Shown here: piece after piece, positions 16,156 to 63,617 of the stretch
Position numbering within the stretch: position 1 is the first letter of the stretch
How the letters are laid out: each line of letters starts with the position of its first letter
From: a virus
Lineage: Duplodnaviria > Heunggongvirae > Uroviricota > Caudoviricetes
Virus record (IMG/VR): IMGVR_UViG_3300003310_000099
Span: 202,295 to 266,294 of that record
DNA length: 64,000 nt
Strand: one strand, 5' to 3'
Notes under the pieces: model-generated
Told to the model about the DNA's origin: nothing
The model's input: the letters and a program-made list of their open reading frames with translations, nothing else
The model's database searches: none
Position numbers and translations under genes: made by a program

Positions 16156-16171
16156 GCTTAGCTGTACCGAG
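16156..16171 (+). repeat. Dispersed element copy 1
   Basis: GCTTAGCTGTACCGAG. Confidence 0.9.
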
Positions 16172-16360
16172 GAAATTGAAAATGGCGAAATCGAATGGTC
16201 CAAGTGACGCAAGTTTTGCAGTAGCAATGTTAATGTTTGGAGTAATCGGGGCTTTAATTGGATTCGGCACTCAGGGTACTTTACAAGGTGCCTGCTTGGG
16301 TGCAGGGGTTGGGGCATTGGTGCCAGTTGTACTTTTAATTTTTAGTGGGATGCCTTGAAA

Positions 16361-16377
16361 GCTTAGCTGTACCGAGT
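16361..16377 (+). repeat. Dispersed element copy 2 (before rIIB)
   Basis: GCTTAGCTGTACCGAGT. Confidence 0.9.
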
Positions 16378-16414
16378 GATTTGTTCTGAAACCTACAAAC
16401 AAGGGAGAAGTTAA

Positions 16415-17356
16415 ATGATTCCTGGTGGCGTTATTGTCTCGGACTCTGGTGTTATCACAGTCTCGGTCAGTGGCAAGCTTTATTCGTTTGCCAGGGACCA
16501 CATGAATTACAATCTGGTCAAGGAAGCTCTGAAGGACAATAAGCTGGAGAATATTCCCAAGTTGGCGGATATTCCCAAGTCTATTCAAGAGTTCACTGGT
16601 TCCAATGTCACTGTTGTCAATGGCAACATTCTTTATAAGAATAAGCCGCTTGAGAACAGTTTGACACGGCGAATCCTTGCCCTTATGAATGAGGGTTTCC
16701 CATTCGCTCCGATGCTCAAGTTCCTTGAGAATTTGATGCAGAATCCGAGTTGCCATTCTGTACGGGAACTTTATAATTTCCTGGTACACCGCAACTTGCC
16801 GATTACTGAGGATGGGTGCTTCTTGGCTTATAAGTCTGTGCGCCCAGACTATATGGATTGGCATTCCAACAGTGTTCTCAATTCGGTTGGTGCAACCATT
16901 CCGCCGATTGAGCGCAATGAAGTTGATGATAATTGGCGTCTCGACTGTAGCTCAGGCTACCATGTCGGTGCTATGGAATATGTCGATAATTTCCACCGTC
17001 ATGATGGGCACATCATGATTGTGAAGGTTAATCCGAAGGACGTGGTTAGCGTTCCCGAAGGGGAATGTACCAAGTGCCGTGTGTGCTGGTATGAAGTTGT
17101 GGGCGAAATGCAGGAAGAGGAATTGGTGCGTCCCGTCTACGCTACTACTCCTACATCCTATCAGCCTTCCGTCCCTAACAGCATCACCCAACAAGATGAA
17201 GGCGGCTGGCCCAATGATATCGTTGCTGATGACGACGACGATGACGAAGATGAATGGGGCGACGACGATGACGATGGTGGTTGGCCCGAAGATGACGAAG
17301 ACGATGACGAAGAATATGAAGAAGATGACGATGAGTACGGTCCCGTCGAACCGTAG
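16415..17356 (+). CDS. rIIB: rIIB-like protein with acidic tail
   Basis: NPS..SVRELYNFL...ITEDGCFLAYKSVR, CSSGYHVG, VKVNPKDVVSVP. Confidence 0.85.
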   Translation: MIPGGVIVSDSGVITVSVSGKLYSFARDHMNYNLVKEALKDNKLENIPKLADIPKSIQEFTGSNVTVVNGNILYKNKPLENSLTRRILALMNEGFPFAPMLKFLENLMQNPSCHSVRELYNFLVHRNLPITEDGCFLAYKSVRPDYMDWHSNSVLNSVGATIPPIERNEVDDNWRLDCSSGYHVGAMEYVDNFHRHDGHIMIVKVNPKDVVSVPEGECTKCRVCWYEVVGEMQEEELVRPVYATTPTSYQPSVPNSITQQDEGGWPNDIVADDDDDDEDEWGDDDDDGGWPEDDEDDDEEYEEDDDEYGPVEP

Positions 17357-17372
17357 TCAGTAAGTGTTAATT

Positions 17373-17414
17373 AACAAATAGGGACTAGGAGTTAAATTCT
17401 AGTCCCTATTTGTT
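17373..17414 (+). terminator. Rho-independent terminator-like hairpin after rIIB
   Basis: AACAAATAGGGACTAG / CTAGTCCCTATTTGTT 16-bp stem. Confidence 0.7.
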
Positions 17415-17644
17415 TTGGAGCAAATCATGAAGCTTACAAAAGCGATGGTGATTCTTAGCTCTGCATGTGATAAAGTAATCATTGAAACCGATTTTCCATG
17501 TCCGTATGTTGTGGCTTTTGCACCAAAGCAGCAACCCCTCTCGATTATGTTTGATGCAACTTATGATACGGGTGTTCAGTATGTTCGTGACAATTTTGGA
17601 TTAGAGCCAGAAATCGTGAATACGCGACTGTACAATAAGTGATA

Positions 17645-17661
17645 CCTTAGCTGTACCTAGT
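17645..17661 (+). repeat. Dispersed element copy 3 (before rIIA)
   Basis: CCTTAGCTGTACCTAGT. Confidence 0.9.
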
Positions 17662-17707
17662 AATTTGTTGACGAGTGAGAACAACTGTTTAACTGGAGTA
17701 AATAAAC

Positions 17708-19825
17708 ATGAAGCTTGAAGACAAGGTTGGCAACGTTTCGATTTCCGCTGGTATCAAGGTCACGAATTTCCGTCTCAAGGTTAATAAGCATTCTTTTAAG
17801 CAGCTTTACAGTGGTCTTTACAGCGATAAGATTCACGCAATCATCCGTGAATTGGCTACGAATGCTGCGGATTCGCATGTTTCTGCTGGTCGTGCTGACG
17901 TTCCTTTCGAGGTCCATCTTCCGAGTGAACTGGAACCGTTTTTCTATATTAAGGATTTCGGTACTGGTCTTTCCCCCGAACAAATTGACGGTGAAAACGG
18001 TATCTACATTACTTTCTTTGAATCTGATAAGGCCCATAGTGACGATTTCACTGGTTGTCTTGGTCTAGGTTCCAAGTCGCCGTTTGCTTATACTGACAAC
18101 TTTATGGTGGAAAGTCGCCATAATGGTAAGAAGTACAATTACGTCTGCCTTCACAATGAGGCTGGTGAACCGTGTATCGCGCCGATGGGTGAATGCGATA
18201 CTGATGAACCGAATGGGTTGAAGGTGGAATTTGCGGTCAAGACGGAAGATTTCCATAAGTTCCACGGCAAGGCTGAGGAAGTGCTTAGTTGGTTTAAGGT
18301 TAAGCCGACTGTCTTCGGTCGTGATTTTGAGTTTAAGAAGCACGAATATCTCCGTAGTACGGAACGGTATGGAGTGTGCAAGAATAATCGTGGTCATTCT
18401 ACGGTTGTCATGGGCAATGTTGCTTATGATGTTCATGCTACTGATTTCAGTTATAGTAAGCTTAGCGATGTTGAGCGACAGGTGATTGAGTGGGGTGTCG
18501 ATCTTTTCGTGGATATTGGGGACGTGGAATTCGTTCCTAGTCGTGAAAAGTTGGCGATGACTGATAAGACGGTTGTTGGCGTCCGCAAGTATTTGGGGGA
18601 CGCTATCAAGTCGATTCAGGAAGAATTGGAACTCCAGGTGCAGAAGGCACCAACTGTTTGGCAGGCACGCCGAATGCTTCACGATATCAAGCATTCGATC
18701 TTGGGCAAGGTCCGTAGTATGACTACGGTAATGTATCAGGGCGAAGAAATTTCTGAATACATTAGTTTGAACAAGCTTTATGAGGCTGAAGATGTAGCCA
18801 AGCCGAAGTTTGAATCCTTTTCTTTGAAGAAGGAAAACTATCGTCGGGCTGACGAAAACACCATCTATTGCGATGGTACGGTTATCTATCTGAATGATCT
18901 GGAGCATGGTGGTTATGCTCGTATCAATCAGCATCTTCGCAATAATAGTTACAAAAGGGGCTTCTGCGTAAGCAATGCGACCAAGGAATTCCTTGATAAG
19001 ACTGGTATCGGGGAAGTTGCCATTCTTACTTCTAGTCTGCCGAAGCAAGAACGCCAGAAGCGGGAACGGGTTGAGGGTGAATCTTCTGGTTATGTCAAGC
19101 GGACGCTGTTGCAGGAATACGTTCCTAGTGGCAACAGCTATGCTGGTAACTGGTGGCAGGATATTGAAGTCGATCTTGAAGAGGGTGGTGTTTATGTCGT
19201 AGTGTCTTACGGGCAGGTGGTTGAAGGTGATGGCAAGCGTTCTCCGCAAGACATTCGTTATAAGTACAACCTCATGAAGACGCTTAATCCCGATTTCAAG
19301 TTGCTGGCCATTCGGCCCGCTCACTTGGAAAAGATGGGCAAGCACGCGCACAAGTGGATTAAGTTTGACGATTATGCCAATGTTCTCTTGAAGGAGAAGG
19401 AAAAGTACGCTGAAGTGGCATTGGCATATTTGCAGCACAATGAAGTCGAGAACAAGGATCGTTACGAATTCTTTTTCAAGACCACTTTCGAGGATTATTC
19501 CTTGTTTGGTGATTTTCTTGAGAAATTGAAGGCTGCTCGGATTCATAAGGATAACGCAATCGCAGCAGCGTATGCTGAGTTGGACGGTCATTGCACGGTT
19601 AAGTGTCCTCTTTTGACGAAGAGGAATGCACTTGAACACATGCGTAATTCGATTGAGAAGGCATATCCTCTGCTTTCTAAGTTGGATTGGTGGAATGTTC
19701 GGAATGGTAATGTTGAGGATATTGCGGATTATATCCGTGCGATGGATGATCGTCGCATGGATAACATTGTGGCTCATCGACCTGCCGTTCGAGAAGCGGA
19801 GGTCCATTTAGAAGAGGCGGTTTAA
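17708..19825 (+). CDS. rIIA: rIIA-like protein (GHKL ATPase N-domain)
   Basis: LYSDKIHAIIRELATNAADSH, DFGTGLS, GLGSKSPFAYTD, FVPSREKL. Confidence 0.85.
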   Translation: MKLEDKVGNVSISAGIKVTNFRLKVNKHSFKQLYSGLYSDKIHAIIRELATNAADSHVSAGRADVPFEVHLPSELEPFFYIKDFGTGLSPEQIDGENGIYITFFESDKAHSDDFTGCLGLGSKSPFAYTDNFMVESRHNGKKYNYVCLHNEAGEPCIAPMGECDTDEPNGLKVEFAVKTEDFHKFHGKAEEVLSWFKVKPTVFGRDFEFKKHEYLRSTERYGVCKNNRGHSTVVMGNVAYDVHATDFSYSKLSDVERQVIEWGVDLFVDIGDVEFVPSREKLAMTDKTVVGVRKYLGDAIKSIQEELELQVQKAPTVWQARRMLHDIKHSILGKVRSMTTVMYQGEEISEYISLNKLYEAEDVAKPKFESFSLKKENYRRADENTIYCDGTVIYLNDLEHGGYARINQHLRNNSYKRGFCVSNATKEFLDKTGIGEVAILTSSLPKQERQKRERVEGESSGYVKRTLLQEYVPSGNSYAGNWWQDIEVDLEEGGVYVVVSYGQVVEGDGKRSPQDIRYKYNLMKTLNPDFKLLAIRPAHLEKMGKHAHKWIKFDDYANVLLKEKEKYAEVALAYLQHNEVENKDRYEFFFKTTFEDYSLFGDFLEKLKAARIHKDNAIAAAYAELDGHCTVKCPLLTKRNALEHMRNSIEKAYPLLSKLDWWNVRNGNVEDIADYIRAMDDRRMDNIVAHRPAVREAEVHLEEAV

Positions 19826-19887
19826 TATGCGTGATGACATGGCGAAAATTAAATATTTTTACTATATAGATAACATGGAGGTTATCT

Positions 19888-27415: not shown

Positions 27416-27420
27416 TTATT

Positions 27421-28014: not shown

Positions 28015-28021
28015 ATCATTT

Positions 28022-29366: not shown

Positions 29367-29382
29367 CTTAGAGGAGACAGCA

Positions 29383-31437: not shown

Positions 31438-31986
31438 ATGTTGGATAAACTAAAAGAAGCAATCCAGAAATTACCAGAGCTTTTGCAAGACCCAAATAAC
31501 TTTGATTCTTTGATCGTTAATAGGCGTAAACCACACACTTATAGAGTGTTTACGCATTTTAACGGTTATCGTATTTGTTTGCATAAATTTGATGTTTGTG
31601 ATAGGCACGAAGCGTTCCTCCACCCACATCCCTGGCCTGGCGCTTTTGCTATCTTACTTGGTAGCTATGAAATGGAAGTTGGGTATTCTGTATCTCGTAC
31701 AGAAAAACCTAATCATGTATTAAAAGTGGTATTGCTAGAAGGTAGTAGATACGAGATTACCAGTCCATTAACCTGGCATTCGGTCACGCCACTTGAGCCG
31801 ACTTATACGGTCATGGTTAATGGCGAACCTTGGGACGCTGAGACTGCCCATACAGACGTGCGGACCACTAAGGGCAAAGACTTGGATAGGATGGAGCCAG
31901 ATAAATTACTGCACCACCTGAAATCATTTAGGTTGCTGCTTCCTTTGCATGTTTGCCCAAAGTGCGGGGAAGGAGATAAAGCTTAG
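31438..31986 (+). CDS. cupin-like protein
   Basis: HPHPWP...YEME...WHSV. Confidence 0.5.
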   Translation: MLDKLKEAIQKLPELLQDPNNFDSLIVNRRKPHTYRVFTHFNGYRICLHKFDVCDRHEAFLHPHPWPGAFAILLGSYEMEVGYSVSRTEKPNHVLKVVLLEGSRYEITSPLTWHSVTPLEPTYTVMVNGEPWDAETAHTDVRTTKGKDLDRMEPDKLLHHLKSFRLLLPLHVCPKCGEGDKA

Positions 31987-31997
31987 CTGTACCGAGT
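31981..31997 (+). repeat. Dispersed element copy 4
   Basis: GCTTAGCTGTACCGAGT; supplies TAG stop of upstream gene. Confidence 0.9.
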
Positions 31998-32502
31998 GGT
32001 GCAAAGGAGGATTACATGGTAGTCCAAGATGAAAAAATGCTGGCTTGTTTTGTCAATTCTGAGCAACCACCGCTCAAAGTAAAACACCTGTGTTATTACA
32101 CTACACCGAACATTGAGAGTGATAAGATTAACCTCATGGAAGTGTATGAGGCACATTATCCGCATCCTGAAGCGCCAGATGATGCTATTATCCATCTTAC
32201 CACAACTAGACTGGTTAAGACACTAAGGCGTTCTGATTATGATTGTGCCCATGTCGTTCTGATGGAAGCACAACAGAAAGCGTGCCGATACATCGAAGTG
32301 AGGGGATAAAATGATTAAGATTTCTAATCCTGGTAGCGTGGTTTATCCAAATAAGTTCAAGCCTGGTGATAAGGCGAAGGTGCTTAAAGCGGTTGAATTC
32401 TGCGATGGCACCCGCCACACCAAGGGTCAAATTGTTCCCGTTACAGAACGCAACGTATCCTATTTCAATGTGTTTCATCAAGATCATGAATTGGAGAATT
32501 AA

Positions 32503-39198: not shown

Positions 39199-41916
39199 AA
39201 TTTTAGATTCCAAAGTGGTTTGTACCATATTGGAAGTGGTAATAGACGATTATCTAAAGGCTGACACCTTTTATAATCGTCTATTTAACCATAAAAAGAT
39301 CGCAGAAGCCAAGAAAGAATTGTTCAAAGTTTACCAAATGGCCTGTTCACAATTAAACCTGAAATATAACTCAGAACTACAAGAGTTAGTGGAAGGTATC
39401 GAGGAGGTTTTGTAAATGTGTGAGAATTGCAAGAAGCAACGTAATGTTGTTGCTTGTTCCGTCTGTGGCAAGAAGACTTGCGACCGTTGTGGGCTTAATG
39501 TGATTCATGAAAACGGTCCTTGGGTATGCGTCGGTGGTGGAAAGTGTCACTTCATCGCTCGTCAGCAACCTTTGGTGAAGAAATGATGCTTAAAATCATG
39601 CAACCAGCATACATTCCTATTTCACAGGAATTGTATGCGGTTATAGAAAAGTATTTCTCCAAGAACAGGCGGTATTGTTGTCAGGATATTCAGGAAGCAA
39701 CCGAACCTGGGACTAAATTATCCGACGAAGCAGACCAGTTGCGCGCCCAATACGGGCAGTTTTACTTCACGTTATATGATGAATAATGGATAAGCGGAAA
39801 AAAGATAAAGTATGTCCTAAATGCCACGTCTCTGGGTTTATCCACGATGGCTGGACATGCACTGGTCGCCCTCACTTCACCTGCCAAGGTTGCAAATCCG
39901 ACTGGACTTGTGGTAATAAGGACGGCAAACCTTATTACGATAATGCTTTAAGCCATCCAGACAAAATCATCATTCTAGGCTGGACGCAGGAAGATTACGA
40001 TTGTTATAATCTCAGTGTTGAGAATGGGGTTGTTCGTTTTGAGAGAAAGTAATGGGATTAAGCAAATTACCCATTGGCACACCCATCAGGAGGGTAAAAA
40101 CAGAACCTAAAGGTTCTGGTGCCTTTTCCTGAATGGCTCATTCATTCGGGCGTACAGTTAGTGCGCCTAAACACATGAAGAATGAAGTGGGCGACGGTCC
40201 CTCTGGCATTTGTGTATTACTTCATTGTCAGTGCATGAACCAAAAAATGAGCAAAATGCACAAACCTTGGTATAAGGGCGAATATGAGATTCTAACAGAG
40301 AAAGAATACCAAATGTTAGTGCGATATCATGATGAAACATGCAACGTTCTCAAAGAGACAGAATGTCAAATGTTGGTAAGGTATAAAAATGCTTAAAGAA
40401 ATAACAACGACTGTGGAAGTATGTGATGTTTGTGAAAAATATCCAATGCGTTATCGTTGTCAAGGATGTTCTAAATCAGTTTGTCATAATTGCGTCAATG
40501 ATTTCACTCAGTTTCAACGTAGAGTCAGAACTAGTAGTTTGTATACAATAAAATTTTGCCCTGAGTGTATTAAAGTGGAAACACCTTTAATTAAACAGCT
40601 TCAAAGGATTAGTGATTTAAGCAAGGAGTGGTGGGCTTTGTGTGAAAAGTATGATAAATTAGCAGAAGAAGCTGAGTATGGTATTGAGGTTGATTAATGC
40701 ACCCTACACCCCGAAAGCCTATGCGAACCTTGGAAGGTGCCATAGGTAAAAAGCCTTGTGAGATTAAACTGCAAAGTATATTGCAGGAGTTGGGGGATCG
40801 TGTAGCAGTCAACAAAGTATTCGGCACACTATTAGATTTTCGTGAAGGTTTGAAACAAATTGGACATATCCCCGACAAGAAATGGCGTGGGCGTTGCTGG
40901 ATAGAACTTAAAGATAAAACCGCTCAACGATTTACTAATTTATATAAGACTTATGGCTGGCCTGAGACATTATACACTCATGCTTTATGTTGTATGACAG
41001 CTTATTTTAGAGAAACATGGAATAATGACAAATGACCCCTTTTATTATACTATATTTAGCAATTGGGTTTTTAATTGCCGCCAATGCCCTTAAATTACTC
41101 GATGGACTTCCAACCTGGGCTAAGGTTGCTGCATTTACATTTGACTTATTTCTCTGGCCCATGCATCTTTTAATCAGTGTACTTATAATTTTAGTAGCTA
41201 GGAGATAATATGAGAAAGTTTTTTGCTTGTGTGTTAGTTGTGCTTGCTCTGCTCAATTGCAGTTGTGGTGTATTCGTTGCTGAGCGTATGATGGACAAAA
41301 TGACCGAAATGATGGAGAAGATGGCTGAGCTTCAATTGAAGATTGAAAAAGAACGGCGTGCCCAAATCTACACCATTGAAGGTGTAGTAGCAAAAGTAGA
41401 AATGCTTACAGTAGAAAGAGAACTGGAAGCTGCCAAAGAGATGGATAAAGAACTTAAAGCAGAGAAAAATATAAAGATCAATACGAAAAGGACTTATAAG
41501 GTTTACAATGTCATTTTTGAAGATGGTAGGGAAAAGGAATTTAGTGCTGTGCCTTCCAAGCCATTAGAGGCTGGTGTTGCCTATATTATCACCTACAATG
41601 GCATGAACGAGATTACTGAAATTAAGAAGGTACAACCATGAAATGGAAAGTATATGAACCGACTCCTGGCCCGCCTTTAATGAACTGTAAAGGCGTCAGC
41701 TATATGGGTTATGGGATAAAACGCAATGGTCAGTTCCTTGATAAAGAAGATGACATTAAGGATGGCGATACGTTTGCTATACTTGGTGGAGAGGATTGGA
41801 TTGTAGAAAATAATAAGCGTTGGGGTAGGAACGGCACAACTTATTGTGCTTTAGAGTTTGCTAAAGACGACAGGAAATGTTGGGTGGCGGCTGGTTTCTG
41901 GTACTGCCCACAGAAA

Positions 41917-41932
41917 GCTTAGCTGTACCGAG
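41917..41932 (+). repeat. Dispersed element copy 5
   Basis: GCTTAGCTGTACCGAG; supplies TAG stop of upstream gene. Confidence 0.9.
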
Positions 41933-42078
41933 GGAGTTGAAATGAGACAGTTCATGTTTGGTTTGGTGGCGGGTCTTTTTATTGGCAGCGGAGTAACTTA
42001 CATCGTTGCTGATTATTATTGGCCTACAGTAAAAATCAGAGTTCAGAGTGGTCCTAATCCATTCTATGGAAGGTAAAA

Positions 42079-42612: not shown

Positions 42613-43107
42613 TGTATCACGAATTCCGAAACACGAATCGTAGCGGTTGGAAGTACACTTACACTGGTAAGGAATTACTTCCTTTTGCCAAGCTCTGTCT
42701 TGCCAACTACTACAAGGCAGAGTCTCAGGCGCGGGCAGAAATGTCCAAGCTGATTCAGGATATGCGTCGTAATCAGGATGATCCTGCACTGGTTCAGTGC
42801 CGTAAGGACATTGAATCTAATGGGTCTATGCGGGAAGAGTTGATGGTGTTCGTGCATGAGTTCACTCGTCAACCCGACCGTGAATATTATCTTGCTTTGG
42901 GCGATGTGGTATTCTTCGGGATGCTGGATACTCCAGAGGAGTTGATGAAGTAATGGAAGCCTCATTTTTAATGGCTATAATGACAATAGCATTGTCGTTG
43001 GTAGTTTTCAAAATGTTGGGGCTAATTTCAAAAGTTCTGAAAAAGAAGCCATCCCTTTATCAAGGGATTCCAGTCGAGTATTTGGAAAAATACCCGTTGA
43101 ACTGAAA

Positions 43108-43124
43108 GCTTAGCTGTACCTAGT
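43108..43124 (+). repeat. Dispersed element copy 6
   Basis: GCTTAGCTGTACCTAGT. Confidence 0.9.
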
Positions 43125-43126
43125 GG

Positions 43127-43155
43127 TTTACAAGTGTTGTTTTTCGTGGTAAAGT
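43127..43155 (+). promoter_or_regulatory. sigma70-like promoter (extended -10)
   Basis: TTTACA-N17-TAAAGT with TG. Confidence 0.6.
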
Positions 43156-43175
43156 AATACAAGGGAGGTTCTATT

Positions 43176-44758: not shown

Positions 44759-44921
44759 ATTTTTTAATGGAGAAGACTAATGGAAGACCATGAGAAGTGG
44801 TTGCAAGAAAATGAAGAAGCTCGAAAACTAGTTGAGCTAGGCTTATCCCAAGCGAAGGCGGGACAATTTGCAGAGAACCCACCAGACTTGGAAAAGGATT
44901 TAGAAGATTTGGAAGAGTAAA

Positions 44922-44938
44922 CCTTAGCTGTACCGAGT
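44922..44938 (+). repeat. Dispersed element copy 7
   Basis: CCTTAGCTGTACCGAGT. Confidence 0.9.
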
Positions 44939-45806
44939 AAACCATGAATGACTGGACTTTCGACAAAATCAGTGAAACCTGGCTTTGCGGTAAAGAAAGC
45001 TGTGGTTGTGGCGTATACAATGATGGTAAAGGCTGGGAAGGCAACGTGTCATGCTCAGACCTTATTGTAGGCATTGGTCCATTTACCACGAAGGAAGAGG
45101 CAATGACTGAATGCCTAAAACAATTAGAGGAATTAAAGGTGCGAAATGGTTGAGTTATATGATGCTCATTACGAAATGGATTTGGGATGTGGCGGCGATA
45201 TTTGGCATTTAAGAGGCAATGTAGTCAACCATCCTAATTTCCCAGATTGGGATAGTGTTGGTCCTTCAACTCCAGTTGAGTTCGATGAAGCCACTGACAC
45301 CATGAAAACTGCAAGTGGCAAGACATACAAGATTATGTCTTATATCAACAAAGCAAGCGTCGTTGAGCAAATCAAGAAGGATATTGCAAAGAAAGGATAT
45401 GAAGTACACTAATGGCTAAATTTGCTATCTTTATGGTCTGTATGCTTGTCATGTTTTACGAGGGTCTTGGACTCCATCTGATGTGGGGTTGGTATATTAC
45501 CAAGGTTTTTGGTGGTATTCAACCTGGAATCGTCGCGTGTATTGGCTTGTCGATGATCGTTAGCATGGTTAAGCCATCGCCAGTGCCAGATGATATGGAT
45601 ACGGAGAAGGTTTTGTTTGTACTTCTTAATTCCGTGTTCCGTGTCACTTTCATGCTGATTGTTGGGTATATTCTCCATTTTTGGATTTGAAAAATGATTT
45701 ACTTGGCAATTGTCATAGTTCTTGTTGCATTAAGTTTATATAATTGTTATAATCGGTATAAGAGGCTAGAATGGGCTTCTTATACCGATGGCTTTTATAA
45801 GGGCTT

Positions 45807-48838: not shown

Positions 48839-48845
48839 ACTTTAT

Positions 48846-49487: not shown

Positions 49488-49524
49488 ATGACTCCTTTCA
49501 TCATAAGTTTCTCTGTAGTATATA

Positions 49525-50331
49525 TCATTTATTATTCAATTTAGAGAGAAGCTCGCCAACGGTGATTAACGGTGAAGGCTTTTCAAATTTATCAGGCTCC
49601 GCAGGACACATATTACATATAGATTCATTTTTCTGAGAAACAAATTGCTCAAGTTCTTGGTCCGTTGCTGTATGTTCTAATGGTTTATATGCCAGATAAC
49701 GGTCCCATTTAGGAGATATATTTGGCCATCGTTTTTTTTGAAGTTGCAGATAAGCAATTGTAGAACATTTGTATAATTTGCCATCTAAAATTTGCAGGCA
49801 ATGTTTGCATGGGCAGATGTTCCAGCTATCTTCAGGTCGATTATTTTCGTATGGGAGTACATCTGGCCCATAGCCTTGATAGCGACGTGTCCAATTCTCA
49901 AAACTGTCTCTTATCGCATGAGGGATTGTATTAGAATTCAAATAAGCTATAACTTTATCCCAAGTAATGTTAAATTCAGGAGAGTTACTATGTCTGCTTA
50001 CAATTAGATTAATATTTAGTTCACTAATTATTGTTCCTAGATTTGGGAAATTGGGTAGTAAAAATCCATTTGTTACGAGTTCGATGCTGTTTTTCCAGTG
50101 CTTTCTGGCAACCCTTAAAAAGTCTTCGATGCGGGGATTAAGTAGTGGCTCGCCACCTAATACAGAGAACCTTATTGGATTCAGTCTATTGCTCCACAGG
50201 CTCATTTGTTCGTCGGCATATTCTGGAGTAACTAAGCCTTTGTGTGCATTATTTGAGAAATGGCTACAGCTTTCACATGTAAAGTTGCAAGCATGAGCAG
50301 CGTGTATTTCGATTCTTGTAACATTGACCAT
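49525..50331 (-). CDS. Radical SAM protein
   Basis: CNFTCESC, LGGEPLL, VTNG, C-terminal Cys cluster. Confidence 0.9.
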   Translation of the reverse strand: MVNVTRIEIHAAHACNFTCESCSHFSNNAHKGLVTPEYADEQMSLWSNRLNPIRFSVLGGEPLLNPRIEDFLRVARKHWKNSIELVTNGFLLPNFPNLGTIISELNINLIVSRHSNSPEFNITWDKVIAYLNSNTIPHAIRDSFENWTRRYQGYGPDVLPYENNRPEDSWNICPCKHCLQILDGKLYKCSTIAYLQLQKKRWPNISPKWDRYLAYKPLEHTATDQELEQFVSQKNESICNMCPAEPDKFEKPSPLITVGELLSKLNNK

Positions 50332-50355
50332 TTACTTATATAGTATGTAGCGATA

Positions 50356-50372
50356 GCTTAGCTGTACCAAGT
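50356..50372 (+). repeat. Dispersed element copy 8
   Basis: GCTTAGCTGTACCAAGT in divergent intergenic region. Confidence 0.9.
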
Positions 50373-50374
50373 GC

Positions 50375-50403
50375 TTTACAAACCCCAATTTTCGTGGTAG
50401 AAT
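50375..50403 (+). promoter_or_regulatory. sigma70-like promoter (extended -10)
   Basis: TTTACA-N17-TAGAAT with TG. Confidence 0.65.
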
Positions 50404-50613
50404 GCTCAGAGGGTAACTCATGTATAGGGAAAATCTTCTCGGCGTGAAACGGACCATCAAAGTCTGGAATATCATCAAGGTTTCTGGATTCTTGTTCTGC
50501 CTCAAAAAAACCTTCACTGTGGAAGGCTACGATGAACATGGTCATGTGCTAATATATCTCCCAGAGATTCATCCGCATCACCTGGAAGGTGTTGATTTTA
50601 GGAATCAAGAATA

Positions 50614-51228: not shown

Positions 51229-51730
51229 AAAATGGAAAATACACTTTTAGAAAAACTGCTACATGCAGTTGACGAAGCTATCCTCTATCGGACAGAGGGT
51301 AAGCTGAACGACTTGAAGAAGGTTCGTGAAGAAATTCGTCGTAAGAACGAATTGATTGCACTGACCCTCAATGCTTTTCGTTCAGAGAACATTGACCAAG
51401 ACAAGTATCGTGAGTTGTTTCTGTTGGAAGGAAGTTTGGATAAGTGGGGGCAAAACCGATGATTACCAATATGTTGGATAAGGATGTGCTTTTTAATGAT
51501 AAGGAATGTCTAATGGGTTAGAAGGTCGAATCGTAAAGGACTAAGAAAATGGCACTAGAACTACAAATAGCCATATTAATTGTGGCTGGTGTTGTCGGCA
51601 GTTTCTTAATCGGGTTGGGAGCTTATCTTGGATTGAAAGATTCCAATAACCCAACTGGATTTCTTTTTGGGCTTGGCGGTTTAGGTCTAATCGTATTTGC
51701 TATTCTAGCCGTGATTGGTAAGATCAAATA

Positions 51731-51747
51731 GCTTAGCTGTACCGAGT
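51731..51747 (+). repeat. Dispersed element copy 9
   Basis: GCTTAGCTGTACCGAGT. Confidence 0.9.
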
Positions 51748-52389
51748 AGTCCATGATTACCTACAACCAAATTAAGAATCTGCCGAACAATCATCCTCTG
51801 GTCGAACAGTTTAAGCGAGAACTGCAAGACTTTGAGATGTATGAAAAGCGTATTGGCGACAATAATCCATTGGCGGATGAAGAATCCAAGGCTTATTTCG
51901 ACCGTTATATTGCGGGGGACCGATGACGCCACATGATTTTCGCACAGTCGCTCATGACATGTGGACTAAGATTGCTTGGACTGATGAAGAATTACTTCAA
52001 GCACTCAAGGTCCACTACTGTCTTCTAGCTTATTTCTGTGAGCGTGGCGAAGGAATGATTTCTTTCGCTCTCCAAATGGAATTGAGTGCATTGGAGGGCT
52101 ATGCCAACGCCAGGAAGTGGAAGTGCAGTAATGATGGCACTAATACTTGGCAAATTAGGCGAAAAGATGGGACGCTTGCATGATAAATATATACATGGTT
52201 GAATACATGGATAAGAGTGCTGGTATTGGTAAGCAGTTCTATTACGATGACCAGAGACTTGAGTTAGTTGGGCAAGATGAAATGCACGTTCCTTATTTTG
52301 CCCCGATCAATGACAAGAGTAAGAGATTTACGCTGCCCGATGGTGAACATATCGCACAACAGTTGATGTGCGGGGAATAGGAGTTTGCC

Positions 52390-56085: not shown

Positions 56086-56379
56086 TAATGATTACTCTGG
56101 CATGGGCAACCAAACGTCTGTTGATGGCTGAAATCTGCAATGAGGATGAAGGTGGCGTTACACCCGCTACCATTAGCTCTGCACTTGAAAGTGTGCGGTC
56201 GGGCTATGATCCAGCCCCCGAAGAAGAATTCGATATGAAGAAAGTCGAGGCTCAATTAACAGAATTGCTTGATGAGTTTCCTAATGGTCTTGCTAGTGAT
56301 TTTTTAGTTAAGGCGGATTGGGATATGCGATTTGAAATTGCACAGCGTAGGGAACGAATGAAGAGACGTGCTGCCAAAA

Positions 56380-56396
56380 GCTTAGCTGTACCGAGT
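56380..56396 (+). repeat. Dispersed element copy 10
   Basis: GCTTAGCTGTACCGAGT within 3' end of ORF 56088..56429. Confidence 0.9.
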
Positions 56397-56432
56397 GATG
56401 AGTTGGAACCTTCAAATCAGGGGGAATAAACT

Positions 56433-57287: not shown

Positions 57288-57463
57288 GTTATTATTCAAC
57301 TGCTGACGCAAAGTACAAGAGTGCTTGTGACCATATAAAAGAAGCGATTAGAGATTTGTCTGCCATTGTGGTTGATGAAGTGGATGGCTACAGCGACCAC
57401 AATGACTTCCATGTTATAGAAGCTTTGCAGGAACTAATCGCAATTAAGAAAAAGCTCGAATAA

Positions 57464-57480
57464 CCTTAGCTGTACCGAGT
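57464..57480 (+). repeat. Dispersed element copy 11
   Basis: CCTTAGCTGTACCGAGT. Confidence 0.9.
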
Positions 57481-57496
57481 GATGCAGGAGGAACCA

Positions 57497-58107: not shown

Positions 58108-58227
58108 AGGACGAATCGTGAGGCGCTAATTACTGTAGTTTACAGCCCCGTTCGTTTTGATTAGTGAAAACCAAGGGTCGTGAGGCGAATAATTACAATT
58201 AGTTTACAGCCCCGCCCTTGGTTTTCA
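58108..58227 (+). repeat. Tandem duplicated stem-loop motif (candidate RNA element)
   Basis: Two copies of TCGTGAGGCG..TAATTAC..TAGTTTACAGCCCCG, each closed by a different stem. Confidence 0.75.
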
Positions 58228-58246
58228 TAATTTTCATGGAGTTGAA

Positions 58247-58726: not shown

Positions 58727-59123
58727 TGTACAATTCCGTTGAGGAAATCATTGAAGATTGTAAGAATAAGGGTATTGCTTCATGGGGGGATTATTACATT
58801 GAGCATAAGCGGGATACCCTGTTCGAGCAAGGTTATACAAAGCTTTACAAATATGCTCATCCCGATTCGTTGAGCATGAATCATCTTATTGACAGGGGCG
58901 ATCTTGAAGAATTGGCTTGGGATTTGATGCTTTACAATGAGCCTGTTGAAACTGTATGGGGTAATTTCTAAATAAACTATGAGACGAGCAGAAATTAAAA
59001 CTAAAACTGTTACACAAAGCAATGATGCACATTGCCACAATCCACGGTCTAACGGGCATAAAAACCGTAAATCAATCAGGCGAAATAGCTCCAAGAGGCT
59101 AAGGCAATTAGTAAAACGGGATA

Positions 59124-59140
59124 CCTTAGCTGTACTGAGT
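59124..59140 (+). repeat. Dispersed element copy 12 (variant)
   Basis: CCTTAGCTGTACTGAGT. Confidence 0.85.
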
Positions 59141-59160
59141 CAGGTACAGGAGAACTAAAA

Positions 59161-60542: not shown

Positions 60543-61214
60543 ATGAAATCTTTTGCTGAATATGTGGAAATGAGAGAGGGTGTATTAAGCCAAGTGCGTG
60601 GCTATTTTAACAAAGGCAATCAAGCGAATAATAAACTAGAATTGGATGCTAGGAACGCATTAAAAGCTGTAATTAAAAATCTTGCAAATTCTAGTGACCC
60701 TAAGTTAAAATATCTTTATAGTGGCGGCTATGCTCATGAATTATACAAGATTCGCCAATTTATAATAGCAAATAGGACGCAACCACAGGCTCAGCAACAA
60801 CCACAGCAGACCCAAGAGAGTATTGGTCAGGCTATTGGTAATTGGGCTGGTCAAGGTGGATTACTTGGTGCTGCATGGAACAAAATGACCCGTTCAAAAG
60901 AAATGGTGCAGCACAACGAACTTGAAAATAAAGCAATTAAGGCTTTGCAGGCTCTTGCAGACCGAGTAAATTACGAAAAAGGGGAATTGTATTACAGTGG
61001 TTACGGCTCAAGAATACAGTGGTACGTTAATTGGTTGAAAAAGGCACAGGCATTTAATAATACAAATATGGGCGTTCCTGATGAATCCCCACCAGAGGAT
61101 TATATCTCTTATCGTAGGGTTCAAAACCCTCAGCTTAGAAGTAAGCGAGTATCTGCACCTGGACAACAATTACCTGGCCAACAACAGACTCCAAGATCAG
61201 GCCGTTGGGCTTAA
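60543..61214 (+). CDS. possible internal head protein with internal repeat
   Basis: MKSFAEYVEMRE; two YLYSGGY / LYYSGYG repeats; TATATATAA upstream. Confidence 0.55.
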   Translation: MKSFAEYVEMREGVLSQVRGYFNKGNQANNKLELDARNALKAVIKNLANSSDPKLKYLYSGGYAHELYKIRQFIIANRTQPQAQQQPQQTQESIGQAIGNWAGQGGLLGAAWNKMTRSKEMVQHNELENKAIKALQALADRVNYEKGELYYSGYGSRIQWYVNWLKKAQAFNNTNMGVPDESPPEDYISYRRVQNPQLRSKRVSAPGQQLPGQQQTPRSGRWA

Positions 61215-61216
61215 AA

Positions 61217-61232
61217 GCTTAGCTGTACCTAG
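61217..61232 (+). repeat. Dispersed element copy 13
   Basis: GCTTAGCTGTACCTAG. Confidence 0.9.
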
Positions 61233-62357
61233 AGTTTAGCAAAGGAGATTCTTATGCACTTCGTAGCTGAATTCTGGTGGTTGTGGCTTATTCTTTCTGT
61301 TGTCACGTTGCTCTATGGTGGCTACAATCAAGTTAGCCGCATGAAGGGCATGATGCGAGGTGACATTGATAACTTCTCAAAGGGGTTATTTGCTCTTTTC
61401 GTTGCAGCAATTCTACATTTTGGTTTCCTTGTCCTATTGGTGACTGCTATCGTGCTTCATGTCATCGACTACGCAAAGAACTAAGGAGAAAAAATGACGC
61501 CTCTTCAAATGATTGATGAATTCCAGTGTCCAGGCTGCATTCATGGTGTTAATACCACTGAATGCGAAAAGTTTGAAAAGCGTGATGATGGCACTCTTGC
61601 TTGTAAGAACCATCGTCCTTCAACTTTTATTGGTGGAATTGGTCGCATTGCATTGGGCTTGCCAAAGGGGTTTAACCGTTGCGGTACTATGGAATGGCCT
61701 GAAACCCCGCATTGTTTTATCCGTCTTTATGAAAAGCCCAAAGACCGAACAGAGTATAACAAGTTTAACATGCCTGTTTGGGCGATGGAAAAGGATGGAT
61801 TTCTTTTCGTCCGTTGTTATTCTCCAAGGGTTAATTGGACTTTTGTTGATGTAATTCAGGGCGGCAAGCTGGAACACGCTCCAGGGGCTTTGAATGTTGC
61901 CGAATTCATTGATGATATGGATTAGGAGAATTTATGAAAGTTTTGATGTACGGCAATCGTAAGGAAGACCCATCTTATTGGGATATTAGCACTCCTGAAA
62001 AGGAAGAGGCTGGTTTCCGCTGCTTGTTTCGTCATTTAGATGAAAATTGGCAGATGTTTCAGTATGCTGCCGACGACAACGAATACACCGTCAAGCAGCT
62101 AAAAGAGCTAGAAGAACTTGAAATCCTTTTGAAAGATGGTAAAGTTCCTAAGCTTTTCATCGAAGAGTCCAAGAAGAGTCTTGCTGAATTGCCAAGGGTT
62201 CGCAATCAAGTTGCTCGCCAACAGGAGGAGCTTGAATTAGCGCAGAAAGCCAAAACTGGTGACATTAAAGCTATTAAGTGGCTGTTGCGTTCTATTCAAG
62301 GCAGTGAGTACGCTGATTGGTCGATCATTGAAGTGATGAATCCGTTGGAGGGGTAAG

Positions 62358-63302
62358 ATGCCTAACTGCTTAGTTTGCCATAAACCTATTGTAAAACGGG
62401 TACATAGGCCAGCAAAATACATGCAGAAGTATTGTGGCATTGCATGTAGAGACGAAGCAGCAAGCATTATTAGCATTCAGCCTTGTAAAGTATGCAAAAA
62501 GCCATTTAAGAAGCGTAGAAAGGGCACTGTATGCTGCTCTGTTGAATGTTTTAATGCTAACAAAAAAGGAACGATGGACAAGGATGTTCTGATTGAGGCG
62601 ATGCTTCAATGTCGTTTTGGTGGCTGGCCAAATTGGACCAATATATCTAAAAAACTTAAATGTTCTCATCGTTTTGCAGTTAAAATGGCAAAACATTATG
62701 GTTTAATTGATAAAAAGCGTCGGGGGCCAATTGTCGATGGTGTCTTTCTGCCTATTCCTAAAAAACCGCCAGAACCAATTAATCCAGAATTAACCTCAAA
62801 GGAAACTCTGGAGCGGACATTGATTGAGAACAGACGGGTTGACAACAATGGTTGTTGGTTGTGGACTAAACGGCTCGATTTTCGTGGTTATGGCGTCATG
62901 CACCTGCCAAGACCTTATGAAGATGAGTATTTGGTAAAATTCATCAGTTTGTACATTTGGAAAGACATTCCACTAGAAAAGAGAAAATTTGTTTTTCATA
63001 AGTGTAATGTGCGTCACTGTTTCAATCCAGACCATCTAATTCCTTGTGAAACTAGATTGGAATTGGCTAAATTGTTCACCAAATATGGCAGAAATAAGTT
63101 GCCAATTGGTGTAAAGCATGTAAGATGGACGCTTGATTTACCGACTGCTCTTGATATTAGGGATGCTATCATCCACGGCGAAACTAACAAGCAAATTGTT
63201 AAAAGATTTGGCATCAAGTCTCAAATTGTACAGAATATCAGGATGCGAAGGACTTGGAAATATATTTGGAAACTGAAACACGAATACTTGGAGGCGAAAT
63301 GA
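62358..63302 (+). CDS. HNH endonuclease
   Basis: KYCGIAC/CCSVEC Zn repeats, GCWLWT, HKCNVRHCFNPDHL, C-terminal HTH. Confidence 0.8.
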   Translation: MPNCLVCHKPIVKRVHRPAKYMQKYCGIACRDEAASIISIQPCKVCKKPFKKRRKGTVCCSVECFNANKKGTMDKDVLIEAMLQCRFGGWPNWTNISKKLKCSHRFAVKMAKHYGLIDKKRRGPIVDGVFLPIPKKPPEPINPELTSKETLERTLIENRRVDNNGCWLWTKRLDFRGYGVMHLPRPYEDEYLVKFISLYIWKDIPLEKRKFVFHKCNVRHCFNPDHLIPCETRLELAKLFTKYGRNKLPIGVKHVRWTLDLPTALDIRDAIIHGETNKQIVKRFGIKSQIVQNIRMRRTWKYIWKLKHEYLEAK

Positions 63303-63600
63303 TTGTTTTATCAGAACACTCGCACACTGGCTCTTATAGCGATTTCTCTTTTGTTGAGAGAACTTGCTTTTTTGAGGATTTGAACGTCGTACTCAAAGTG
63401 ACAAGATACGATAGTGGGATTATTAATTACAATCCTTATGGGAACGCAGCTAACTTTGCCAAGGCACAGGAAATCTATGAGCGATTGTGTAAATAAAGTA
63501 TGGACAAAATTAAAGCATGGATGCTCGGCTTAGCTATAAAAGCCACTTTGGTTTGGAGATTCTTTGTCGAGTTAGTTAAAGCTGTCTTCGGCGTCAAATA

Positions 63601-63617
63601 GCTTAGCTGTACCGAGT
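63601..63617 (+). repeat. Dispersed element copy 14
   Basis: GCTTAGCTGTACCGAGT. Confidence 0.9.

What the first reader, a model, noticed from the sequence alone, without database searches (positions are those of the whole stretch)
16156..63617. 14-copy dispersed element [G/C]CTTAGCTGTAC[C/T]NAG[T] punctuating gene units: phage-specific promoter or cassette recombination site
Seen: the core CTTAGCTGTAC(C/T) starts at 16157, 16362, 17646, 31982, 41918, 43109, 44923, 50357, 51732, 56381, 57465, 59125, 61218 and 63602. All copies found are on the + strand and lie 9-55 nt before a start codon. In 10 of 14 the core begins within 3 nt of the upstream stop codon or contains it, so genes end flush against the site. 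Two copies (44923, 51732) are 9 nt from an ATG with no SD; two (43109, 50357) directly abut a sigma70-like -35. The site is a weak inverted repeat (CTTAG-CTGTA-CYNAG). Several downstream genes (rIIB, rIIA, 43176, 56433, 59161) share an AAG-rich, higher-GC codon style unlike the AT-rich structural and HNH genes. Inference: a contiguous 16-17-bp site does not resemble bipartite sigma70 or T4 TATAAATA promoters. It could be (a) an early promoter for a phage RNA polymerase or activator, (b) an operator or RNA-processing site, or (c) a recombination site that exchanges accessory genes as cassettes. I do not recognise it as a described motif.
Basis: partly seen in the sequence, partly recalled or inferred. 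Interest (0 to 1): 0.88.

Follow-up and report, generated by a model that had tools for sequence, protein, structure and literature searches.

The report
Huge-phage promoter giving leaderless mRNAs
A 20-base signal repeated over 110 times in a roughly 600-kb "huge" phage is most likely the phage's own promoter, starting transcription exactly 21 bases downstream (often on the start codon itself), and related huge phages each carry their own version of it.

Summary
CTTAGCTGTAC occurs 14 times in the window, all on the + strand (0.02 expected), and 110 forward against 2 reverse in the 373-kb record, which is a trim of a 596-kb contig. The conserved block is longer than reported: WWAS-CTTAGCTGTAC-CNAGT, then Y20/R21.

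In 27 copies an SD-less ATG sits exactly at +21. Those ORFs are mutually unrelated. tRNA 5' ends fall at +21 to +26, never closer.

Three relatives carry lineage-specific versions with the same geometry:
- G002: CTTAGTTGTACC, 101 forward/7 reverse.
- LR756511: TWAM-AGCTGTAC, 134 copies.
- L098: GGCGACAGTAGTTTAAA.

Twenty-six orthologous gene pairs carry each genome's own variant.

No β, β' or T7-type RNA polymerase is found, including in a complete 595-kb relative. No tyrosine recombinase is found, and the motif has no hairpin potential. The clade does encode sigma-70-family factors.

Best reading: a phage-specific, -35-less promoter occupying -25 to -6, probably read by host core polymerase with a phage sigma, giving many leaderless mRNAs. 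Motif-bounded genes turn over between relatives. I read that as a by-product of the repeat and not as its function.

This is a new variant of a known kind (phiEco32 gp36 and T4 late promoters are the closest). No transcript data exist, so the start site and the reader protein are inferred. Neighbouring windows of this scan noted the same motif.

The parts
16153..16181 (+). Motif copy (core at 16157). ATG at +25 behind GAGGAA, 58-codon ORF.
16358..16386 (+). Motif copy (core at 16362) upstream of rIIB. ATG at +53 with an SD. A motif also sits at the orthologous position in G002 and in LR756511.
16415..17356 (+). rIIB gene, driven by copy 16362.
   Evidence: PHROG 609, E 3e-66
17642..17670 (+). 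Motif copy (core at 17646) upstream of rIIA. ATG at +62. The relatives have a motif at the orthologous position.
17708..19825 (+). rIIA gene, driven by copy 17646.
   Evidence: PHROG 612, E 2e-112
31978..32006 (+). Motif copy (core at 31982). The TAG inside the core is the stop of the upstream 183-codon ORF. ATG at +34 behind AGGAGG.
41914..41942 (+). Motif copy (core at 41918). The core TAG is the upstream stop. ATG at +24.
43105..43158 (+). Motif copy (core at 43109) followed directly by a sigma-70-like promoter, TTTACA-N17-(TGg)TAAAGT, so the two are in tandem. ATG at +67.
44919..44947 (+). Motif copy (core at 44923), leaderless class. SD-less ATG exactly at +21, 69-codon ORF.
50353..50406 (+). 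Motif copy (core at 50357) in an 88-bp divergent gap after a minus-strand radical-SAM gene. A sigma-70-like promoter, TTTACA-N17-(TGg)TAGAAT, follows. ATG at +63.
51728..51756 (+). Motif copy (core at 51732), leaderless class. SD-less ATG at +21, 57-codon ORF. The G002 ortholog is also at +21 (+18 from the A of the core).
56377..56405 (+). Motif copy (core at 56381). ATG at +52 behind GGGGG, 284-codon ORF.
57461..57489 (+). Motif copy (core at 57465). ATG at +32 behind AGGAGG.
59121..59149 (+). Motif copy (core at 59125, variant with T at position 11). ATG at +36 behind AGGAG.
61214..61242 (+). Motif copy (core at 61218). ATG at +36 behind AAGGAG.
63598..63626 (+). Motif copy (core at 63602). 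ATG at +33 behind GGAGG.

Best explanation
The element is a phage-specific promoter. The conserved block, WWAS-CTTAGCTGTAC-CNAGT, occupies about -25 to -6. Transcription starts at the purine 21 nt after the first C, with a pyrimidine at -1. Nothing is conserved where a -35 element would lie.

About a quarter of the units place ATG exactly on the start site and are translated as leaderless mRNAs. The rest carry a 12-35 nt leader with a Shine-Dalgarno. A few units drive tRNAs with 0-5 nt leaders.

By elimination the 275-aa SigA-like sigma is the best candidate. The TG-TAnnnA part of the block sits where an extended -10 would be read.

The motif marks the non-structural part of the genome: rIIA/rIIB, tRNAs and a GC-richer block of one-gene units. 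It is absent from the structural gene blocks.

Shown: copy number, strand bias, fixed geometry, lineage-specific variants, absence of recognisable polymerase and recombinase genes, presence of sigma genes.
For: 1. Non-random, co-oriented and always at gene junctions. There are 14/14 + strand copies in the window (0.02 expected) and 110 forward/2 reverse in the record. In LR756511 the copies follow gene orientation on both strands.

2. Contiguous conservation from -4 to +15, then Y20 (100/110) and R21 (104/110). Information content is zero further upstream.

3. Fixed geometry. ATG falls at exactly +21 in 27 copies against 0-5 at neighbouring offsets. Those 27 ORFs are mutually unrelated, 25 are at least 51 codons long, only 4 have any SD-like string, and 19 have an AAx second codon. 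The same peak appears in G002 (25 copies) and in LR756511 (18 copies at +18/+19 from the A of the core).

4. tRNA 5' ends lie 18, 20 and 23 nt (G000) and 20, 20 and 20 nt (G002) after the A of the core, never closer than 18.

5. Lineage-specific variants.
- L072 (sigma 82% identical) has our exact motif, with ATG kept at +21 at an orthologous site.
- G002 has CTTAGTTGTACC, 101 forward/7 reverse, with AGCTGTAC only at chance level.
- L096 has the same T variant.
- LR756511 has TWAM-AGCTGTAC-WAAAW, 134 copies against 8 for the control.
- L098 has a different block with one ATG at +21.
- Twenty-six orthologous gene pairs carry each genome's own variant.

6. Some copies directly follow hairpin-plus-T-run terminators (5-8 copies). 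One lies in a divergent gap after a minus-strand radical-SAM gene.

7. No polymerase of the phage's own is detectable. PF00562, PF00623 and PF00940 are absent from G000 and/or the complete 595-kb relative. The T7 positive control worked. There is no DxDGD signature in large ORFs. The largest unknown proteins look like a tape measure and a fibre.

8. Sigma genes are present and conserved across the clade.

9. Precedent: phiEco32 gp36 reads a single block, AATGTA, centred at -11.5 (PMC12276001).
Against: - No transcript 5' ends exist for this uncultivated phage, so the start site rests entirely on geometry.
- A 20-bp contiguous, near-invariant block is unusual for a sigma-70-family promoter.
- Sigma275 keeps an intact region 4 helix (KERVRQ), yet no -35 element is conserved.
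- Upstream hairpins are only weakly enriched: 24% of copies against 16-23% in controls. Most copies directly follow an upstream ORF, so read-through transcripts that could be processed are plausible.
- The tRNA-Met junction also has a conserved sigma-70-like promoter about 60 nt upstream.
- The sigma-to-motif link is co-occurrence in five lineages that were themselves chosen through the sigma. It is not an independent test.
- About 222 kb of this phage's 596-kb contig was not available.
Confidence: 0.72

Rival explanations
1. The element is a promoter, but it is read by an unrecognised phage-encoded RNA polymerase, either virion-delivered or early-expressed, and not by a sigma factor on host core enzyme. 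This would resemble T7, N4, phiKZ or AR9.
For: The block is long, contiguous and almost invariant, its distance to the start is fixed, and its specificity changes by lineage. All of that is typical of single-polypeptide phage polymerases (my own knowledge of T7/T3/SP6). The motif also covers the small-gene block that looks like an early region. About 222 kb of the genome is unseen, and many large proteins match no family.
Against: PF00940, PF00562 and PF00623 find nothing in the complete 595-kb relative that uses the same core, and the T7 positive control worked. There is no DxDGD or HDS signature in large ORFs of G000. The largest unknowns resemble a tape measure and a PKD fibre. Hairpin-plus-T-run terminators and tandem sigma-70-like promoters fit a programme run on host polymerase.
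Confidence: 0.12
2. The element acts in RNA. A sequence-specific endoribonuclease recognises it in long polycistronic transcripts and cuts at Y20/R21, which releases leaderless mRNAs and near-mature tRNA 5' ends.
For: The fixed +21 ATG and the tRNA offsets fit a cleavage point as well as a start point. Most copies directly follow an upstream ORF with no terminator. At the tRNA-Met locus a sigma-70-like promoter upstream would transcribe through the motif.
Against: - The motif has no secondary structure (-1.2 to -2.7 kcal/mol), and no known RNase reads about 20 nt of single-stranded sequence (my own knowledge).
- Several copies sit immediately after hairpin-plus-T-run terminators.
- One copy lies in a divergent gap with no co-directional upstream transcript.
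- In three copies a sigma-70-like promoter lies downstream of the motif, so its transcript would not contain the motif.
- All conservation lies upstream of the putative end, as in promoters.
Confidence: 0.1
3. The element is a recombination site that exchanges accessory genes as cassettes, either integron-like or as a target for homing or site-specific exchange.
For: Gene content between G000 and G002 differs in motif-bounded units. Only 61 of 111 units have a homolog, the order is shuffled in the dense block, and only 10-20% of the 220-320 kb stretch aligns.
Against: - No tyrosine recombinase in the record, with the control ringing 14/14.
- No inverted repeat or hairpin.
- A recombination site does not explain ATG at exactly +21 in 27 unrelated genes, or the tRNA offsets.
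- The site lies 5' of each gene, whereas attC lies 3'.
- Since every gene junction carries the motif, any gene gain or loss will look motif-bounded.
Confidence: 0.03
4. The element is an operator for a global phage regulator (repressor or activator) that overlaps ordinary promoters.
For: It is a contiguous double-strand-like site containing two 4-bp palindromes, AGCT and GTAC. In three copies it abuts a sigma-70-like -35.
Against: Most copies have no recognisable -35/-10 pair for the host sigma nearby, so the motif is the only candidate start signal. A block covering -25 to -6 would exclude polymerase rather than recruit it. The fixed distance to ATG and to tRNA 5' ends is not expected of an operator.
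Confidence: 0.03

Closest known systems
phiEco32 middle/late promoters read by phage sigma gp36 (with gp79)
   Same: A phage-encoded sigma-70-family factor on host core polymerase reads a single conserved block in the -10 region, AATGTA centred at -11.5, which shares TGTA with our core. There is no canonical -35 consensus, and the block appears in many copies before middle and late genes (PMC12276001).
   Different: Our block is about 20 bp instead of 6-9 and lies about 3 bp further upstream. The sigma here is a 275-aa SigA-like protein or a 159-aa ECF-like one, and neither is shown to be a gp36 homolog. No gp79-like partner was identified. The adjacent 262-aa gene belongs to a broad, probably enzymatic family. 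Leaderless starts at a fixed offset are not described for phiEco32 in the text I read.
T4 late promoters (TATAAATA, gp55/gp33) and T4 middle promoters (MotA box, AsiA)
   Same: A single -10-region element without a -35, read by a phage sigma-like protein. Early, middle and late classes sometimes sit in tandem. rIIA/rIIB and tRNA genes belong to the non-late classes (my own knowledge of T4). This phage also encodes a 110-aa protein with only region 2, like gp55.
   Different: The sequence and length are unrelated. No AsiA or MotA homologs were detected, though the controls were silent. The block lies at -25 to -6, not at -30 plus -10.
T7/T3/SP6-type single-subunit polymerase promoters
   Same: About 20 bp, contiguous and near-invariant. 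The start point is fixed. Single-base specificity differences separate relatives, as between T7 and T3. There are many copies, all co-oriented with genes.
   Different: No single-subunit polymerase gene is found in 373 kb of this genome or in the complete 595-kb relative. Conservation ends at -6 instead of running through +6.
PeSL (promoter-early stem-loop) regulatory cassettes of T4-type phages
   Same: A repeated promoter-containing junction element flanks small variable genes in hyperplastic regions. It is thought to favour modular gene shuffling by recombination between repeats (my own knowledge: Arbiol et al. 2010). Here motif-bounded units turn over and are reshuffled between G000 and G002.
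   Different: PeSLs are host sigma-70 early promoters paired with a stem-loop. Here the promoter is phage-specific, and only about a quarter of copies have an upstream hairpin.
Leaderless-gene promoters of actinobacteria, Deinococcus and archaea
   Same: A promoter element lies at a fixed short distance from ATG with no SD, so the transcript begins at the start codon (my own knowledge).
   Different: In those organisms the element is the host's ordinary -10 or TATA box. Here it is a phage-specific 20-mer used for both leaderless and leadered units.

Membership tests
Phage sigma-dependent, -35-less (-10-region) promoter | The phage encodes a sigma-70-family factor | tested here: met
   Three genes: 159 aa (regions 2 and 4), 275 aa (regions 2 and 4; E 9e-17 to SigA/RpoD structures) and 110 aa (region 2 only). 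Homologs are present in G002, LR756511, L096 and L098.
Phage sigma-dependent, -35-less (-10-region) promoter | The conserved block overlaps the -10 or extended -10 position relative to the transcript start | tested here: inconclusive
   With the start inferred at +21, TG lies at -15/-14 and TAnnnA at -13 to -8. The start itself is inferred from ATG and tRNA geometry and has not been measured.
Phage sigma-dependent, -35-less (-10-region) promoter | No conserved -35 element | tested here: met
   Information content is 0.01-0.06 bits at every position upstream of -5 from the core, in all three genomes.
Phage sigma-dependent, -35-less (-10-region) promoter | Holoenzyme carrying the phage sigma initiates at the motif | not testable with these tools
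   This needs in vitro transcription or 5'-end mapping.
Single-subunit (T7-like) polymerase promoter | The genome encodes a T7-family RNA polymerase | tested here: not met
   PF00940 finds nothing in G000 (373 of 596 kb) or in the complete 595-kb relative. The same search finds T7 gene 1 at E 1e-109. Very divergent forms of the N4 vRNAP type could be missed.
Single-subunit (T7-like) polymerase promoter | Contiguous block of about 20 bp with a fixed start | tested here: met
Multisubunit phage polymerase promoter (phiKZ/AR9 type) | The genome encodes β/β'-like subunits | tested here: not met
   PF00562 is absent from G000 and LR756511, and PF00623 is absent from LR756511, with controls ringing 14/14. 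There is no DxDGD in ORFs of 150 aa or more, except in one 188-aa ORF.
Integron attC / site-specific cassette site | An associated tyrosine recombinase | tested here: not met
   PF00589 is absent from G000, with the control ringing 14/14. The unseen 222 kb was not searched.
Integron attC / site-specific cassette site | An imperfect inverted repeat able to fold as a hairpin | tested here: not met
   Minimum free energy is -1.2 to -2.7 kcal/mol for 22-mers.
Integron attC / site-specific cassette site | Gene-content differences bounded by the site | tested here: inconclusive
   Units differ between G000 and G002. Because nearly every junction carries the motif, this would be seen under any model.
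RNA processing site | A defined RNA structure or a known nuclease recognition pattern | tested here: not met
   There is no stable fold, and copies occur after terminators and in a divergent gap.
RNA processing site | Monophosphate or hydroxyl 5' ends at the site | not testable with these tools
   This needs differential RNA-seq.
T4 MotA-dependent middle promoter | MotA and AsiA homologs, with a box at -30 plus a sigma-70 -10 | tested here: inconclusive
   There are no PF09010 or PF09158 matches, but the controls rang nowhere. The block's position, -25 to -6, does not fit a -30 box.

The most novel reading that the evidence does not exclude
A clade of roughly 600-kb huge phages runs most of its non-structural genome from a 20-bp single-block promoter. 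A phage sigma factor (or a still unrecognised polymerase) reads the block in a mode not described for sigma-70-family proteins: contiguous recognition from -25 to -6 with no -35. Leaderless mRNAs are made on a large scale. Each lineage has a mutually distinct promoter/reader pair, which amounts to a natural set of orthogonal transcription systems. The same repeats also serve as the joints at which accessory genes are swapped.
Probability: 0.25. Interest if true: 0.8.

Novelty: new variant of a known kind. Interest (0 to 1): 0.62.

Why it matters
Huge phages of 500-700 kb are known almost only from metagenomes, and how they schedule the expression of hundreds of genes is unknown. This element gives the following.

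- **A transcription map.** It yields a concrete, testable map for one such clade, with more than 110 units and predicted start sites.
- **Dependence on host polymerase.** The clade appears to rely on host core polymerase redirected by its own sigma factors.
- **Leaderless translation.** About a quarter of the units appear to be leaderless, which is unusual for phages.
- **Natural specificity variants.** Variants that differ by as little as one base across about 100 sites could pinpoint the recognition determinants and supply orthogonal promoter/sigma pairs.
- **Annotation aid.** The motif marks true starts of small genes and of non-coding RNAs in the hypervariable accessory block.

Tried and rejected
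- **Close relatives by DNA or single protein.** Megablast of 20 kb against deposited phages found nothing. The exact 16-mer occurs only once per contig in other IMG/VR contigs, which is chance level. The 355-kb contig G001 does not use the motif. rIIA as a single query found no viral-contig relative.
- **Literature.** A full-text search for the motif string returned only unrelated primers. The two huge-phage papers I read do not describe it.
- **Large unknown proteins as hidden polymerases.** L012 has β-propeller repeats, L018 is tape-measure-like and L022 is PKD- or fibre-like.
- **The 262-aa gene overlapping the sigma275 stop as a dedicated sigma partner (gp79-like).** Rejected, because it belongs to a broad family of 222 homologs that includes HNH- and exonuclease-named members and a fungal hit.
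- **"A terminator precedes every copy".** Rejected. Only about 24% of copies have a strong upstream hairpin and only 5-8 have a hairpin plus T-run. Enrichment over controls is weak.
- **The tRNA-Met divergent junction as proof of promoter function.** Weakened by a conserved sigma-70-like promoter about 60 nt upstream.
- **A -35/-10 reading with the start near +32 to +36.** Rejected. The spacing to the TRTnA element would be only 13 bp, the supposed spacer would be the most conserved part, and the +21 start codons would lie upstream of the transcript.
- **Covariation of sigma region 2.4 residues with the motif variant.** Residues differ between lineages, but four lineages are too few to draw any inference.
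- **A T4-late-like second promoter class.** My crude test gave 37 hits against 39 for a scrambled box, with a gap peak at 4-5 nt. This is unresolved.
- **Whole-record search of the 590-kb contig through its locus.** I reached the record instead through its IMG/VR copy.
- **One contig look-up timed out**.

Full report

Yes. CTTAGCTGTAC occurs at all 14 stated coordinates, always on the + strand, against 0.02 expected. Variants with one or two mismatches are near chance, so the set is sharply bounded.

The window is bases 202,295-266,294 of a 373,404-bp IMG/VR record. That record holds 110 forward and 2 reverse copies, and the reversed-string control finds none. The record is itself a trim of a 596,394-bp metagenome contig, so about 222 kb of this phage was not available to me.

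Copy density rises from about 190 kb to 13-24 copies per 10 kb at 290-325 kb. That block is also richer in G+C (45-50% against about 40%). The motif stops abruptly at 325.2 kb, just before the structural gene block.

- The 'inverted repeat' has no folding potential (-1.2 to -2.7 kcal/mol).

**2. Anatomy**

Counting from the first C as position 0, the conservation pattern is as follows:
- -4 is A/T, -3 is W, -2 is A, and -1 is G/C.
- The core occupies 0 to 10.
- Position 11 is C (96/110), 13 is A (110/110), 14 is G (106/110), and 15 is T (94/110).
- After a weak stretch come Y at 20 (100/110), R at 21 (104/110), T at 22 and A at 24.
- Upstream of -5 there is no conservation at all.

The downstream sequence falls into two classes.
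- **Leaderless class (27 copies).** An ATG lies exactly at +21 with no Shine-Dalgarno. Neighbouring offsets hold 0-5 ATGs. These 27 ORFs are mutually unrelated by BLASTP, and 25 are at least 51 codons long. Only four have any SD-like string, and 19 have an AAx second codon. The fixed distance is therefore an independent constraint on many genes and not something inherited within a paralog family.
- **Leadered class (most of the rest).** Position 21 is the G of a TTGTAAC-like string, and an SD-led ATG follows at +33 to +54.

Other features:
- tRNA genes that follow a copy begin 18, 20 and 23 nt after the A of AGCTGTAC. That is +21, +23 and +26 from the first C.
- The motif supplies stop codons. 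The TAG inside the core, or the WAS prefix, often ends the upstream gene.
- Three copies are followed directly by good sigma-70-like promoters with a TGn extended -10. These look like tandem promoters.

**3. Relatives**

The exact motif is not reused in any other IMG/VR contig, and the string is not in the literature. The 275-aa sigma factor and rIIA led me to a clade of huge phages.

| Relative | Size | Identity of sigma275 homolog | Motif version | Copies |
|---|---|---|---|---|
| L072 | 11.9-kb contig | 82% | Identical to ours. One copy is at an orthologous site and keeps ATG at +21 although the bases between differ. | 2 |
| G002 | 390-kb trim of a 590-kb contig | 56% | CTTAG**T**TGTACC. 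AGCTGTAC is only at chance level (1 forward/5 reverse). | 101 forward/7 reverse |
| L096 | 586-kb contig | 39% | The same T variant as G002. | seen at junctions |
| LR756511.1 | 595 kb, complete | 37% | Shares only AGCTGTAC, flanked by TWAM and WAAAW. | 134 (control 8) |
| L098 | 95-kb contig | 30% | A different block, TGGCGACAGTAGTTTAAA. One ATG lies exactly 21 nt from its first base. | 8 forward/0 reverse in 20 kb |

Further points:
- G002 is collinear with our genome. It has the same rise in copy density towards a GC-richer small-gene block, and 25 of its copies have ATG at the same offset.
- In LR756511 the copies follow gene orientation on both strands. They sit upstream of its rIIB and rIIA, and SD-less ATGs lie at +18 or +19 from the A of the core.
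- Aligned on the start point, all versions share GTA at about -14 to -12.
- Between G000 and G002, 26 orthologous gene pairs carry the motif in both genomes, each with its own genome's variant. The change from C to T was therefore concerted across many sites, which is what one expects when a trans-acting reader changes its specificity.

**4. What reads it?**

I found no polymerase belonging to the phage.
- PF00562 and PF00940 are absent from G000.
- PF00562, PF00623 and PF00940 are absent from the complete 595-kb relative.
- The PF00940 search does find T7 gene 1, at E 1e-109.
- There is no DxDGD or T7 motif C in large ORFs.
- The largest unannotated proteins look like a tape measure and a PKD-bearing fibre.
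- No tyrosine recombinase is present.

The phage does encode three sigma-70-family proteins:
- 159 aa, ECF-like, with regions 2 and 4.
- 275 aa, closest to SigA/RpoD, with regions 2 and 4.
- 110 aa with region 2 only, as in T4 gp55.

All three have homologs in G002, and both full-length sigmas have homologs in LR756511.

With the start at +21, the TG of the core lies at -15/-14 and TAnnnA at -13 to -8. The family-wide conserved A sits four bases after the TA, which is the geometry of an extended -10. The ECF-like sigma would suit the few GAAC...CGTC sites, and the region-2-only protein would suit a late class. This assignment is inference. In G002 and L072 the operon that contains this sigma has its own motif copy, which would allow positive feedback. 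G000 lacks that copy.

**5. Why a promoter and not the alternatives**

*RNA processing site.* This explains the fixed +21 equally well, and I cannot exclude it without transcript ends. Several points count against it:
- The motif has no structure.
- Several copies sit immediately after hairpin-plus-T-run terminators.
- One copy lies in an 88-bp divergent gap behind a minus-strand radical-SAM gene.
- Three copies lie upstream of a host-type promoter whose transcript would not contain them.
- All the conservation lies upstream of the putative 5' end.

I also have to be frank about two limits. Upstream hairpins are present in only about a quarter of copies and are barely enriched over controls. 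And the tRNA-Met junction has a conserved sigma-70-like promoter upstream of the motif.

*Cassette recombination site.* This model lacks a recombinase and lacks the required repeat structure, and it does not explain the start-codon geometry. Only 61 of 111 units have a homolog in G002, the order is shuffled in the dense block, and orthologs can switch between the leaderless and leadered forms. Since almost every junction carries the motif, this would be seen under any model. Recombination between identical 20-mers, as proposed for PeSL elements of T4-type phages, is a reasonable by-product.

**6. Comparison with what is known**

- The closest functional precedent is phiEco32. Its own sigma, gp36, reads the single block AATGTA centred at -11.5 on middle and late promoters (PMC12276001).
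- T4 late promoters and the T7-type promoters resemble this element in logic or in form.
- It fails the membership tests for T7-type and phiKZ-type promoters (no polymerase) and for attC sites (no integrase, no hairpin).
- It differs from phiEco32 and T4 in three ways: the length and near-invariance of the block, its position extending to -25, and the systematic use of leaderless starts.

**7. Verdict**

I rate this a new variant of a known kind, with moderately high interest. It gives the first concrete transcription map for a clade of roughly 600-kb phages, along with natural specificity variants that can be tested.

Earlier first-stage notes on neighbouring windows of this genome had seen the same motif and proposed the +21 start. 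I tested that claim here and it holds.

Noticed in passing
whole record (window = G000:202295-266294): The 373-kb IMG/VR 'provirus' record is a trim of a 596,394-bp JGI contig (3300005058 Ga0071082_100015), with rIIA at about 442-446 kb of that contig. About 222 kb of the phage is missing from the record. G002 is likewise a 390-kb trim of a 590-kb contig.
   Followed up: partly
genome 167507-167581 (outside the window): One of the 58 tRNA genes has a CUA anticodon (ARAGORN calls it tRNA-Pyl), so it looks like an amber suppressor. The promoter motif carries an invariant TAG that often serves as the upstream stop codon.
   Followed up: no
genome 306457-321670 (outside the window): A conserved hairpin family, CAGGGTnCGCCCACCCTG, occurs 11 times forward and never in reverse. 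Nine of the 11 copies end 8-14 nt before a motif copy. They may be unit-end terminators or 3'-end stabilisers specific to the dense block.
   Followed up: partly
genome 321900-322135 and 324230-324465 (outside the window): A repeated non-coding element of about 220 bp lies between a + strand terminator and the next + strand motif. It contains the only two reverse-strand motif copies, which point back into the terminator and the 3' end of the upstream gene. It may encode an antisense or small RNA.
   Followed up: partly
window 43127-43158 and 50375-50406; genome ~196430: Good sigma-70-like promoters, TT(G/T)ACA-N17 with a TGn extended -10, lie directly after three motif copies. These are tandem host-type and phage-type promoters. 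Such host-type promoters are otherwise rare in the genome (7 forward, 2 reverse).
   Followed up: partly
window 48125-50328, minus strand: A three-gene minus-strand island sits in an otherwise + strand region. It includes a radical-SAM protein (49525-50328) and a protein with an F5/8 type C-like domain (48125-48835).
   Followed up: partly
L098 (95-kb Logan contig), whole 20-kb locus: A distant phage with a 30%-identical sigma has its own junction block, TGGCGACAGTAGTTTAAA (8 forward, 0 reverse), lying 34-57 nt before gene starts. The single-block promoter style may therefore be widespread among phages that carry this sigma family.
   Followed up: partly
L096 10001-12402 (586-kb contig): Two tandem paralogs of the 275-aa sigma (289 and 256 aa) are followed by the conserved ~260-aa neighbour gene.
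   Followed up: no
genome 344114-347272 (outside the window): A 1052-aa protein is interrupted by an intein with a LAGLIDADG homing endonuclease. The host protein was not identified.
   Followed up: no
genome 266731-267294 (just beyond the window end): A 188-aa ORF contains VWDFDGDK, which resembles the catalytic DFDGD of two-barrel polymerases. It is far too small to be a polymerase subunit on its own. I did not examine it further.
   Followed up: no
window 45807-47222: A 471-aa protein has a PcfJ-like domain (PF14284, E 6e-13).
   Followed up: no
genome-wide, both strands: The T4-late-like box (nATAAATA 4-5 nt before ATG) noted by another reader shows a gap peak at 4-5 nt. In total it is no commoner than a scrambled control (37 against 39), so this is unresolved.
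   Followed up: partly
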